Made by a program: the position numbers and the translations under genes
Assembly (NCBI GenBank): GCA_947085205.1
Contig: CAMTVO010000010.1
Location: 40,983-104,982 of the forward strand
DNA from: an uncultured Nitrospiraceae bacterium
Lineage (GTDB): Bacteria > Nitrospirota > Thermodesulfovibrionia > Thermodesulfovibrionales > Dissulfurispiraceae
Direction: 5' to 3'
Length of the DNA: 64,000 bases
Notes under the pieces: model-generated
Database searches by the model: none
What the model saw: only the letters and a program-made list of their open reading frames with translations
Told to the model about the DNA's origin: nothing
Shown: positions 57,553-64,000 of the stretch, piece after piece
How the letters are laid out: each line of letters begins with the position of its first letter
Position numbering within the stretch: position 1 is the first letter of the stretch

Positions 57553-57619
57553 CTAATGTTCTTCCGCACTTCCTAACTTCCGAACTATGGCACTTCTGCA
57601 CTTGATCGGATTCTTTTAC

Positions 57620-57648
57620 TTGACAGGGTTTTCCCGAAGTGTTAGTGT
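57620..57648 (+). promoter_or_regulatory. Putative sigma70 promoter for rhlE
   Basis: TTGACA-17-TAGTGT with extended TG. Confidence 0.6.
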
Positions 57649-57747
57649 TAAGTATTAAAACAACTGCAGTACGCGGATGAAAACTACGTCATTGTAAGCC
57701 CCGGGATATACCCTGGTTTTTTCCCCAAACGCAGAAAAAAGGAGTCT

Positions 57748-59001
57748 ATGGAATTTAACAAGTTTAATTTTCACCCACAAATCGCTGCCGGGATTAAGGC
57801 AGCTGGCTTTGTAACGCCAACACCGATTCAGGAGCAGGCGCTTCCCCCCGTACTTCAGGGGAAAGACGTCATGGGCCTTGCCCAGACCGGAACAGGCAAA
57901 ACAGCAGTCTTCGTGCTGCCGATCCTGGAGCGCCTGATAAACAAACCGCGCGGCCGCATCCGCGCCCTCGTCATTGCACCGACGCGCGAGCTGGCAGAGC
58001 AGATCAACACGACCTTCTCGGATCTCGGCGGCAAAACGCACATGCGCAACATCACGATCTACGGCGGCGTAGGCATAAACCCGCAGATACAGAAACTGCG
58101 CGCCGGCGTCGAGATCGTCGTCGCCTGCCCAGGCCGCCTGCTCGATCATATCAATCAGGGAACGATAAACCTTTCAGGTGTAGAAGTCCTCGTCCTGGAC
58201 GAGGCGGACCGGATGTTCGACATGGGCTTTCTGCCTGATATCAGGAAGATCATCAAGCATATACCGGCCAGGCGCCAGACATTGTTGTTCTCGGCAACAA
58301 TGCCCGATGATATCCGTCGGCTGGCCCACGAGGTACTGCAATCCCCTGTCACGGTGCAGGCCAATCACGCCGCACCGGCAAGCACGGTCGCGCATGCCCT
58401 CTACCCGGTGGATCAGCACCTTAAGACCGCTCTCCTCCTCGAACTGCTGCGCCATACCGACACGGAGTCGGTCCTGATCTTTACGCGCACCAAGCACCGC
58501 GCCAAGCGCGTGGGACAGCAACTGGAAAAGGCAGGCTACAAGGCTGCATCGCTTCAGGGAAACCTGTCGCAGAATAAGCGCCAGGCCGCACTGGACGGAT
58601 TCCGTGACGGCTCGTATCAGGTACTTGTTGCCACCGATATTGCTGCCCGTGGCATTGATGTCTCGCTCATATCCCACGTCATCAACTACGACATCCCCGA
58701 CACCACCGACGCCTACACACACCGGATCGGCCGCACCGGCCGGGCTGCAAAGACCGGGGATGCCTTCACGTTCGTTACCCGCGAAGACGAGGATACGGTG
58801 CACGGCATTGAACGTGTTCTCGGCGAAAAGATAGAACGGCGCACGCTGAAAGGCTTCGATTACAAAAAACCAGCACCGGCGCGGGACAGCGAGTTTGCCC
58901 GTCCGCCGCGCGTGGTTGCTCATCGGGGTTCCGCTCCTCAGCGCCACTCTGATTCAGCGCCACTCAAGAACAGGGCGCACAAACCCTTCACCGGTCGCTG
59001 A
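57748..59001 (+). CDS. rhlE: DEAD-box RNA helicase, RhlE-like
   Basis: AQTGTGKT, PTRELA, DEAD, SAT, HRIGRTGRA; AGGAG RBS. Confidence 0.92.
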   Translation: MEFNKFNFHPQIAAGIKAAGFVTPTPIQEQALPPVLQGKDVMGLAQTGTGKTAVFVLPILERLINKPRGRIRALVIAPTRELAEQINTTFSDLGGKTHMRNITIYGGVGINPQIQKLRAGVEIVVACPGRLLDHINQGTINLSGVEVLVLDEADRMFDMGFLPDIRKIIKHIPARRQTLLFSATMPDDIRRLAHEVLQSPVTVQANHAAPASTVAHALYPVDQHLKTALLLELLRHTDTESVLIFTRTKHRAKRVGQQLEKAGYKAASLQGNLSQNKRQAALDGFRDGSYQVLVATDIAARGIDVSLISHVINYDIPDTTDAYTHRIGRTGRAAKTGDAFTFVTREDEDTVHGIERVLGEKIERRTLKGFDYKKPAPARDSEFARPPRVVAHRGSAPQRHSDSAPLKNRAHKPFTGR

Positions 59002-62924: not shown

Positions 62925-63090
62925 AGTCTAACCCCCTTTTTTTAAATCAGGACATATTAACAGTCTCATAATAGTACAGTACACACCTGACCCCGTAATC
63001 TGCCTCCCGTGTTACATACATGGCTTATTTGCGTTTACAAGCTCCATAGTTTTTGCCCCCTTTCCTAAATAGGATAATTTTAGTCTTTTT

Positions 63091-63453
63091 TTAGCACATA
63101 TAAAAATATTTGTCAAGTTTTTTGGGTATTGCAGCGTAGAAAAATGAAGTCTCCCCACCCAGCCCCACGTCGAGCACCATCATCACCGCAAAGCCTAAAA
63201 TCGCTCCCATTGTGGCAATATCCGTATTGCCCCCCCTCTGGGATTCGGGAATCAGTTCTTCCACGACAACGAATATCATTGCGCCGGCGGCAAAGCTCAA
63301 CGCATAAGGCAATATGGGCTTAGAAATCAGAACCGCAGCCGCGCCGATAACACCTGCCATTGGTTCAACAATTCCTGATAACTGTCCGTACCAGAAGCTC
63401 TTCAGTCTTGTTAACCCCTCACGCCTGAGCGGCATTGATATTGCGAGACCTTC
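63091..63453 (-). pseudogene. 3' fragment of a ZIP/ZupT metal transporter
   Basis: [32 protein letters not shown]; homology stops at the E of the (NxP)EG motif, where foreign sequence begins. Confidence 0.85.
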
Positions 63454-63539
63454 GATCTTGCGGCTGCGGGATCTATAATAGAAAAAAGGGGAGAATAGGG
63501 AATAAGACAAGGAGCCTTCTTTATGTAATAAGATAAACA

Positions 63540-63690
63540 AAGTGGCAGCGGGAGCATCTGTGGCTAATGGGGTCCGTCAAAGTGACTCGACTTGAACTGC
63601 CGGATGCTCCCGGCCAGTACCCTGTCCAATGGGAAGATGCCTTTAAGTGGCTATTATAGACAGGACAAACGGTATTGGCAGAGCCATAGA
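63540..63690 (+). ncRNA. Candidate bridge/seek RNA of the IS110 element (boundaries approximate)
   Basis: Two tandem stems with large internal loops; G-U pairs favour the plus strand; CTATTATAGA (63651-63660) is the exact reverse complement of the element end TCTATAATAG (63472-63481). Confidence 0.6.
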
Positions 63691-63714
63691 CTATCAAACA
63701 CACAAAGGAGTCAA

Positions 63715-64000
63715 CTATAAAGAATTCTCCTTAACCGAGAAATAAGAATTATGAGAAAGCATAGCGAAAACAGTTCTAATCAACTTATGAGCAGTAGCCA
63801 AGACAGCCTTTCTGAAAGGCAGGCCGTCCTGTTTTCTTTTAAGGAAATAAGCCTTAAAGAAGGCATTACATCTGATAACGCCGATAGTCATAAGATAGAC
63901 AATTCTCCTGAGATGGCGATTGCCTCTTTTAGAGATTCTGCTTGTGCCCTGAAACTTACCGGACTGAAAGACAGTAGGGTCCATACCTGCAAAAGCATTA
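63715..64000 (-). CDS. IS110-family recombinase/transposase, C-terminal part (5' end outside window)
   Basis: AFAGMDPTVFQSG...ISKRGNRHLRR...AHKL motifs of the IS110 Tnp domain. Confidence 0.92.
   Translation of the reverse strand, partial: NAFAGMDPTVFQSGKFQGTSRISKRGNRHLRRIVYLMTIGVIRCNAFFKAYFLKRKQDGLPFRKAVLATAHKLIRTVFAMLSHNSYFSVKENSL

What the first reader, a model, noticed from the sequence alone, without database searches (positions are those of the whole stretch)
63454..64000. IS110 element with a candidate bridge RNA encoded downstream of and antisense to the recombinase, with readable guides
Seen: the IS110 ORF ends at 63715 (minus strand) and is followed by ~240 nt of non-coding DNA. 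On the plus strand this folds into two stem/internal-loop modules. Module 1 has stem 63549-63560/63601-63612 and inner hairpin GTCA-AAG-TGAC. Module 2 has stems 63613-63621/63671-63679 and 63621-63626/63659-63664. Both outer stems need G-U pairs that work only on the plus strand. Module 2 contains CTATTATAGA, the exact 10-nt reverse complement of the element end TC|TATAATAG, which itself carries a TATAAT -10 box pointing into the RNA. Module 1 loops read TAATGGGGTC and TCGACTTGA, consistent with a TC core and a target near ATGGGG-TC-AAGTCGA. The observed flank CGGGA-TC matches with two G-T wobbles. Established: IS110/IS1111 elements encode bispecific bridge/seek RNAs with target- and donor-binding loops, and circularisation can form their promoter. 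Inference: this is such an RNA in a convergent layout, which differs from the co-oriented arrangements I know. AATGGG occurs in both loops, so part of the left guide could be structural.
Basis: partly seen in the sequence, partly recalled or inferred. Interest (0 to 1): 0.82.

Follow-up and report, generated by a model that had tools for sequence, protein, structure and literature searches.

The report
Two nested IS110 elements, not antisense
The folded stretch is the predicted guide-RNA end of one jumping gene, and a second, distantly related jumping gene has likely landed backwards in its ribosome-binding site, so the 'antisense' layout is an accident of nesting; the second element keeps a stop-free backward reading frame that likely spares the gene it lands in front of.

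Summary
The stems, loops and motifs are real, and the segment looks like a true IS110 bridge RNA. It does not belong to the minus-strand recombinase. That element (A) ends 4 nt after its stop, at a CT core (63709-63710): 32 of 32 close homologues end there, and 0 of 59 A loci carry the segment. The segment is the left end of another IS110 (B; recombinases 23% identical). In 12 of 25 other loci a co-oriented B recombinase follows it, never an opposite one. B guides track B flanks, and B right ends supply the -35 box. A has its own upstream guide region spelling an anti-Shine-Dalgarno target, and here sits in B's ribosome-binding site. The other junction lies beyond the contig end and was not seen.

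Side result: A's clade keeps a stop-free antisense frame across the whole element (1 stop-making codon in 1,702 eligible, against 17% in relatives), like IS900 hed. Synonymous sites still drift, so the open frame rather than a protein seems selected. This scan noted that frame before on other DNA (e1-8051719).

The parts
63091..63453 (-). 3' fragment of a ZIP zinc-transporter gene; its 5' half is not in the assembly
   Evidence: PF02535; 82% DNA identity to the intact paralogue on G000:C64 stops at 63453
63454..63471 (+). 18 nt that are neither ZIP nor element B; the last 7 (63465-63471) are B's left target flank
   Evidence: Homology to B loci starts at query position 13-16; no close second copy in G000; flank matches the left target guide by 3 identities plus 2 wobbles of 7, tied for weakest of 15
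63472..63473 (+). TC core of element B (left junction)
   Evidence: TC|TATAAT starts every full-length homologue; B right ends finish in TC
63474..63708 (+). Left non-coding end of IS110 element B: -10 box (63474-63479), right donor sequence, predicted bridge RNA, and the remnant of the recombinase's Shine-Dalgarno site
   Evidence: Followed by a co-oriented IS110 recombinase in 12 of 25 other loci, by an opposite one in 0
63549..63612 (+). Predicted target-binding loop of B: left guide 63566-63574, right guide 63587-63595
   Evidence: Helix covariation; guide/flank agreement 78 of 105 and 34 of 40 against permutation means 68.7 and 21.7
63613..63679 (+). Predicted donor-binding loop of B: left donor guide from 63629 (ATGGGAAG), right donor guide 63651-63660
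   Evidence: ATGGGAAG lies just before the TC core at 8 of 8 complete B right ends; the right guide complements the start of the left end
63702..63710 (-). Right target flank (63702-63708) and CT core (63709-63710) of element A; on the plus strand this is B's AAAGGAG ribosome-binding site
   Evidence: The second A copy on G000:C24 is identical down to 63707 and differs from 63706; 29 of 32 close A homologues have a flank starting CC
63709..64000 (-). Right part of IS110 element A: last 94 codons of the recombinase, stop at 63715-63717, 4-nt right end, core; cut by the contig end
   Evidence: 98% identical to the full copy at G000:C24:126-1316; window ends at the end of contig C10
63721..64000 (+). 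Start of a stop-free antisense frame (first ATG 63751) that in complete copies runs through the whole of element A

Best explanation
The 63474-63708 segment is the left end of an IS110 element (B) with a predicted bridge RNA on the plus strand, and a second IS110 (A) has likely inserted in the opposite orientation into the ribosome-binding site of B's recombinase gene. B would work like IS621: excision joins its right end (-35 box) to this left end (-10 box), the junction promoter makes an RNA whose first loop reads a GGGG-TC-AG-type target and whose second loop reads B's own ends. A would work the same way with its own upstream RNA, a CT core, and target guides that spell the complement of a Shine-Dalgarno site plus start codon, so any gene with a strong GGAG site, including B's recombinase, is a target. 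Shown: boundaries, homologue layout, guide/flank agreement. Inferred: transcription, circles, RNA-guided recombination, order of insertion (B first, then A), and that B's recombinase lies or lay beyond the contig end.
For: (1) A's second copy in this genome diverges from the window 3 nt beyond the core. 32 of 32 A loci of at least 60% identity with the C-terminus end in the TAGTTGA-(C/A)T motif, with 31 different flanks; 0 of 59 A loci carry the segment at E 1e-5. (2) Of 25 other loci that match the segment, 12 have a B recombinase starting just downstream on the same strand and 0 on the opposite strand; 13 are truncated, at contig ends or followed by unrelated DNA. Of the 22 found by DNA search alone, 9 are co-oriented. 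(3) B's recombinase has PF01548 and PF02371 and is 23% identical to A's. (4) B guides follow B flanks, with exact 9 of 9 left matches in L012, L155 and L159, the last carrying a matching G-to-T change. (5) 8 of 8 complete B right ends carry TTGA(C/T)(A/T) placed 17-18 nt from the TATAAT box once ends are joined, and the left donor sequence ATGGGAAG. (6) A's own left end (G000:C22, overlapping C24 by 141 nt) has guides that match its flanks; across the family 177 of 273 and 149 of 185 positions match against permutation means 124.0 and 68.8. (7) The B-A junction is bridged by contigs of runs X1 and X2; contigs of X3 and of RNA run X19 continue from the same segment into B-type recombinase starts.
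Against: The far junction (A's left end joined to B's recombinase start) was not seen: the contig ends inside A, and G000 (89.7% complete) holds only an 83-codon B-type fragment on C20 and no B right end. X1 may be the source sample and X1, X2 share one study, so they are not independent of the assembly. The window's own left flank fits its guide weakly (3 plus 2 wobbles of 7). Homologues are related, so permutation p-values overstate. No strand-resolved RNA data and no circle junction were observed.
Confidence: 0.93

Rival explanations
1. One reading: the segment is the bridge RNA of the minus-strand recombinase, encoded downstream and antisense.
For: Adjacency in the window and a valid two-loop fold with readable guides.
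Against: A ends at 63709-63710 in 32 of 32 close homologues; 0 of 59 A loci carry the segment; A has its own left-end guides and a CT core, not TC; the segment's donor guides match B's ends and nothing at A's ends; 12 of 25 homologous segments precede a co-oriented, 23%-identical recombinase.
Confidence: 0.01
2. The segment is an orphan left end of B that lost its recombinase earlier, or A's insertion was followed by a rearrangement, so that B's gene no longer lies beyond A. The juxtaposition is then a relic, not an intact nest.
For: No full B recombinase or B right end in G000; 13 of 25 other B left ends are truncated or orphaned, and L009 has an unrelated gene behind the same ribosome-binding site; the ZIP gene beside it is also cut.
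Against: The left end is intact up to the exact base where A's core sits in the Shine-Dalgarno site; the contig break inside a repeated element explains the missing part. This rival shares the main conclusion (two elements) and differs only on what lies beyond 64000; its number is the chance that B's gene is no longer there.
Confidence: 0.35
3. The segment is a non-autonomous RNA cassette that rides downstream of A and is moved by A's recombinase, like ssr9/MITEPpu9 beside ISPpu9.
For: Such cassettes exist downstream of an IS110 gene (PMC12288879, passages).
Against: MITEPpu9 is bounded by copies of its host element's end boxes. This segment has a different core and ends from A, no second end, and never accompanies A elsewhere.
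Confidence: 0.02
4. The junction is an assembly chimera of two repeats.
For: It lies 290 nt from a contig end in a metagenome-derived assembly with repeated IS copies.
Against: Contigs of two runs bridge it with no differences (X1 63373-63736; X2 63632-63736), and the joint falls exactly at A's core inside a site that fits A's target.
Confidence: 0.03

Closest known systems
IS621 and IS110-group elements with a left-end bridge RNA (Durrant et al. 2024, PMC11208160; passages and section 6 read)
   Same: Long left end, short right end, two stem/internal-loop modules, first loop variable and matching the target, second conserved and matching the donor, junction promoter with -35 from the right end and -10 from the left end, DEDD plus PF02371 recombinase downstream and co-oriented. 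Holds for both B and A.
   Different: B's core is TC and its target G-rich (GGGG-TC-AG type); A's core is CT with an anti-Shine-Dalgarno target. No 5' stem-loop is supported in B's alignment. Neither was tested biochemically.
IS900 of Mycobacterium avium subsp. paratuberculosis and its hed ORF (PMC8141618, passages read; Doran et al. 1997 seen only as a title in that reference list)
   Same: Element A has the same kind of target (paper: CATGNNNNNNTCTCCTT; A: CAT, a few bases, C-CT-CCTT) and an antisense ORF that spans the whole element and lacks its own ribosome-binding site.
   Different: A comes from 43% G+C genomes; its 52-58%-identical relatives have other targets and 5-17 antisense stops, so the trait is likely of separate origin (IS900 itself was not fetched or placed in the tree). 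Here the targeting can be read from RNA guides and selection on the frame can be counted.
IS1111-group elements (bridge/seek RNA in the right end; PMC11208160 passages)
   Same: Non-coding guide RNA found downstream of a recombinase gene, which is what the window resembles at first sight.
   Different: A's right end is 4 nt plus core, and the downstream RNA belongs to another element.
ISPpu9 with ssr9/MITEPpu9 (PMC12288879, passages read)
   Same: An RNA-coding unit beside the 3' end of an IS110 gene that is not part of the minimal element.
   Different: MITEPpu9 shares end boxes with ISPpu9; B shares none with A and has its own recombinase family.

Membership tests
IS110 group (IS621-like), element B | DEDD (PF01548) plus PF02371 recombinase | tested here: met
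   Homologue L036:724-1926: PF01548 E 8e-27 (94.3 bits under this call's listed cut-off of 29 is over it), PF02371 E 1e-17. The window's own B gene is beyond the contig end or lost.
IS110 group (IS621-like), element B | Long left end upstream of and co-oriented with the recombinase, short right end | tested here: met
   About 245-nt left end, 30-50-nt right end; 12 of 25 loci co-oriented, 0 opposite
IS110 group (IS621-like), element B | Two internal-loop modules with base-pair covariation | tested here: met
   97.9% paired, 7 of 33 pairs with two-sided change, 0 of 500 shuffles; structure derived from the same alignment
IS110 group (IS621-like), element B | Target loop agrees with flanks; donor loop agrees with element ends | tested here: met
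   78 of 105 (15 pairs, p 0.003) and 34 of 40 (8 pairs, p 0.00015); left donor motif in 8 of 8 right ends. Related sequences, so p overstates.
IS110 group (IS621-like), element B | Junction promoter on circularisation | tested here: met
   Sequence level only: -35-like hexamer at 17-18 nt from TATAAT in 8 of 8 complete elements (spacing counted by eye); none at that place in the linear window
IS110 group (IS621-like), element B | RNA expressed, bound by the recombinase, directing recombination; circular intermediate | not testable with these tools
   One RNA-run contig holds a relative's left end (X19) but contigs show neither strand nor transcription
IS110 group (IS621-like), element A | DEDD plus PF02371 recombinase with own left-end guides matching its flanks | tested here: met
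   on the C24/C22 copy and homologues. Single-sequence folding of that left end is not significant (z -1.45) and no structure covariation was run for A.
IS1111 group | Long right end carrying the guide RNA | tested here: not met
   A's right end is 4 nt plus core in 32 of 32 close homologues; B's RNA is in its left end
IS1111 group | Sub-terminal inverted repeats of 7-17 bp | not tested
   No repeat search was run on the ends
IS900-like RBS-targeting elements with hed (element A) | Oriented insertion in translation-initiation signals | tested here: met
   ATG 3-11 nt from the core on the left side in 20 of 23 close homologues against 7 of 20 relatives; right flank starts CC in 29 of 32
IS900-like RBS-targeting elements with hed (element A) | Antisense ORF spanning the element | tested here: met
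   0 internal in-register stops in 21 of 22 intact recombinase genes; frame ends 3-6 nt from the left core in 14 of 19
IS900-like RBS-targeting elements with hed (element A) | Common descent with IS900 | not tested
   IS900 was not fetched; nearer relatives lack both traits
IS900-like RBS-targeting elements with hed (element A) | Antisense ORF translated from host signals | not testable with these tools
   No canonical start codon at normal spacing from the host site

The most novel reading that the evidence does not exclude
Element A is an RNA-guided transposon aimed at ribosome-binding sites that makes its insertions non-polar: host ribosomes run through a 455-472-codon antisense frame kept open by selection against stop codons only, stop inside a Shine-Dalgarno site that the element's left end rebuilds, and restart on the host gene. 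It arose separately from IS900, which would explain hed as a pass-through frame rather than a protein gene, and would let a host IS110 such as B stay active while carrying A inside it.
Probability: 0.45. Interest if true: 0.65.

Novelty: new member of a known kind. Interest (0 to 1): 0.36.

Why it matters
The claimed new layout (antisense, downstream bridge RNA) is not real, and the case shows how nested IS110 copies can mislead end and guide assignment. Two uncharacterised IS110-group systems are defined with readable guides, one with a TC core, which widens the cores available for bridge recombinases if active. The more interesting lead is element A: guides that read Shine-Dalgarno sites plus a conserved stop-free antisense frame give a countable, testable handle on the function of IS900-type hed ORFs, described as unknown in PMC8141618, and suggest a design for insertions that do not silence downstream genes.

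Tried and rejected
Rfam scan of 63000-64000: no real match. Folding energy as a strand test: both strands fold well. Promoter scan of 63300-64000: one minus-strand hit (63681-63653) against 1.1 expected; its TATAAT is the complement of the right donor guide, rejected. Search of G000 for B's recombinase, B's right end and further A left ends: only an 83-codon fragment on C20 and the C22/C24 copy. Source of the 18 nt at 63454-63471: no close match in G000. One weak hit of the segment beside L152 (23 nt, E 0.003) was rejected as chance. Plasmid collection: no relative of A above 34% identity among the 25 listed of 1,430 records. Tree of 56 proteins: the careful search did not finish; the quick tree places the 22 RBS-targeting rows together but with one long-branch relative (L147) in the same unresolved fork, so a single origin is not shown. 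Four frameshifted or stopped genes (L046, L062, L137, L142) and one duplicate (L138) were dropped before codon counts; the last six codons were excluded. Seven literature searches found no paper on an antisense downstream bridge RNA or on bridge guides that read Shine-Dalgarno sites; the library lacks most subscription papers. PMC7823733 (passages) gave nothing relevant. Look-ups of earlier findings by sequence and by genome were empty.

Full report
Observation. The window ends at the end of contig G000:C10. The minus-strand ORF ending at 63715 is the last 94 codons of an IS110 recombinase (PF02371). The stems, the G-U pairs, the two loop sequences and the 10-nt complementarity between 63651-63660 and 63472-63481 are all present. 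The region folds better than 200 of 200 shuffles on either strand. Rfam has no family for it.

Where the minus-strand element (A) ends. A second copy, 98% identical, lies at G000:C24:126-1316. It matches the window down to 63707 and differs from 63706 on, so it lacks the 240-nt segment. I examined 59 loci of A homologues (29 of the 80, chosen as the closest, and all 30, one being the C24 copy). All 32 with at least 60% identity and a visible C-terminus end in the same motif just after the stop, followed by 31 different flanks, 29 of which start with CC. None of the 59 carries the segment at E 1e-5. More distant relatives keep the end motif and change the flank, which fixes the core as CT at 63709-63710. 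A's left end, on C22 and overlapping C24 by 141 nt, is a non-coding stretch of about 230 nt upstream of the gene, with guide-like loops. Across the family the left guide matches the left flank at 177 of 273 positions (39 pairs; permutation mean 124.0) and the right guide the right flank at 149 of 185 (37 pairs; mean 68.8); 0 of 20,000 permutations reach either, though clade structure inflates this. A therefore has the ordinary IS110-group layout described in PMC11208160 and does not need the downstream segment.

What the segment is. A DNA search of 301 genomes of the same order matched 28, many only weakly; strong matches begin at the TC|TATAAT boundary. Of 30 loci examined, four had no match to the segment and one is the window. 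Of the other 25, 12 have an IS110 recombinase starting just behind the ribosome-binding site on the same strand, 0 have one on the opposite strand, and 13 are truncated, at a contig end or followed by unrelated DNA. This recombinase (B) has both IS110 domains and is 23% identical to A's. Named records with B-type genes are labelled Nitrospirota, Deferribacteres and Desulfobacterota assemblies. In 16 aligned left ends the two modules keep 97.9% of cells paired with 7 two-sided changes among 33 pairs. The first loop varies and follows the flanks: 78 of 105 left positions (mean 68.7, p 0.003) and 34 of 40 right positions (mean 21.7, p 0.00015); L155 and L159 show matched changes in guide and flank. 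The second loop is conserved and matches B's ends: ATGGGAAG precedes the TC core at 8 of 8 complete right ends, each of which also has a -35-like hexamer that would sit 17-18 nt from TATAAT in a circle.

Why the two meet here. In close homologues of A the target guides spell CAT, a few bases, C-CT-CCTT, the complement of a Shine-Dalgarno site and start codon. An ATG lies 3-11 nt from the core in 20 of 23 such loci, against 7 of 20 more distant relatives. In the window A's core sits in the AAAGGAG at 63704-63710, which in intact B copies is the recombinase's ribosome-binding site. The simplest history is B first, A second (inference). Contigs of runs X1 and X2 bridge the junction without differences, and contigs of X3 and X19 run from the same segment into B-type gene starts; X1 may be the source sample. 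The far junction was not seen. G000 holds no full B recombinase and no B right end, only an 83-codon fragment on C20, so B's gene is unassembled or lost.

Side result on A. In 22 intact recombinase genes of at least 60% identity to A (grouped by identity, not by the trait), the three codons that make an in-register antisense stop are nearly absent: TCA 0 of 803, CTA 1 of 800, TTA 0 of 99, while other boxes use third-position A at 5-22%. In 19 relatives of 52-58% identity the figures are 124 of 463, 54 of 683 and 35 of 104, with 5-17 stops per gene. 48 of 51 distant loci with a readable gene have 4-46, and six B genes have 13-27. Among 513 ORFs of at least 390 codons in G000 the median is 12, and only A's gene and its mirror ORF have 0. 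The frame continues through the left end and stops 3-6 nt from the core, inside a Shine-Dalgarno site that the element rebuilds for the host gene, in 14 of 19 copies; it stops earlier in the left end in four and is broken inside the gene in one. Four-fold sites outside the Ser and Leu boxes diverge almost as freely as in the relatives (0.35 against 0.39 at 10-15% protein divergence, with only 2 pairs in the second group; 0.50 against 0.57 at 20-30%). That argues that an open frame, not an antisense protein sequence, is under selection. Against a simple pass-through model: no canonical start codon lies at normal spacing from the host site. There is an ATA at 6 nt in another frame, an in-frame ATT at 13 nt (ATG in L132) and the first in-frame ATG at 40 nt (63751). 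The sequences are related, so the counts are not independent events.

Comparison with what is known. B and A both meet the sequence-level features of IS110-group elements with a left-end bridge RNA; the IS1111 feature of a long right end is not met. RBS targeting with an element-spanning antisense ORF is known for IS900: PMC8141618 gives the target motif CATGNNNNNNTCTCCTT and calls hed a gene of unknown function without its own RBS or start codon. I did not fetch IS900, and the quick tree does not prove a single origin for A's clade; separate origin is inferred from the nearer relatives that lack both traits. This scan had noted the same frame on another genome (e1-8051719), after I had recorded it. 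Seven literature searches found no report of an antisense downstream bridge RNA or of bridge guides reading Shine-Dalgarno sites; supplements were not consulted, and those of PMC11208160 may list such elements.

Verdict. Observation confirmed, headline interpretation refuted. Two new members of a known family, nested. Interest 0.36, carried mostly by the antisense frame of element A.

Noticed in passing
window 63721-64000 (+); G000:C24:126-1316 and C22:1-250; L044-L060, L125-L132: Stop-free antisense frame across the whole of element A, limited to the clade whose guides read Shine-Dalgarno sites; ends in the rebuilt host site.
   Followed up: yes
window 63952-64000; run X1 record 7: The contig closest to the window's A copy continues into sequence that maps about 210 nt further upstream in the C24 copy (positions 809 and 1020): the window's copy may carry an in-frame deletion of about 70 codons, which would keep both frames open.
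   Followed up: partly
window 63091-63471: ZIP transporter gene cut at 63453 with its 5' half absent from the assembly, then 18 nt of unknown origin before B's core; an intact 82%-identical paralogue is on G000:C64.
   Followed up: partly
L018:1500-1960 (G220:C30); run X2 record 11; window 57615-57748: A variant B left end with a different first hairpin, cut after the target loop, lies upstream of a DEAD-box helicase gene whose leader resembles window 57615-57748; a contig of X2 appears to show the same variant behind the ZIP fragment (could be a misjoin).
   Followed up: partly
L007, L014, L017, L022 left flanks; L016, L017 downstream: B's target resembles repeated GGGGTCAG-type motifs; L007 also has a gene that looks like a REP-associated tyrosine transposase (label recalled, not scanned). 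B may target such repeats.
   Followed up: no
L034:around 1489-1506 of the oriented locus (G256:C10): A 17-nt tandem duplication of the left flank, core and first bases of B's left end.
   Followed up: no
L133, L143, L152: Relatives of A with a CA core instead of CT; the right target guide changes to match while the left guide still ends in CT.
   Followed up: no
window 57748-59001 (+): The DEAD-box helicase gene has only one in-register antisense stop in its first 390 codons (genome median 12), giving a 257-aa antisense ORF at 58174-58947.
   Followed up: no
G000:C20:80993-81241: Isolated 83-codon internal fragment of a B-type recombinase, 83% identical to the L036 protein.
   Followed up: partly
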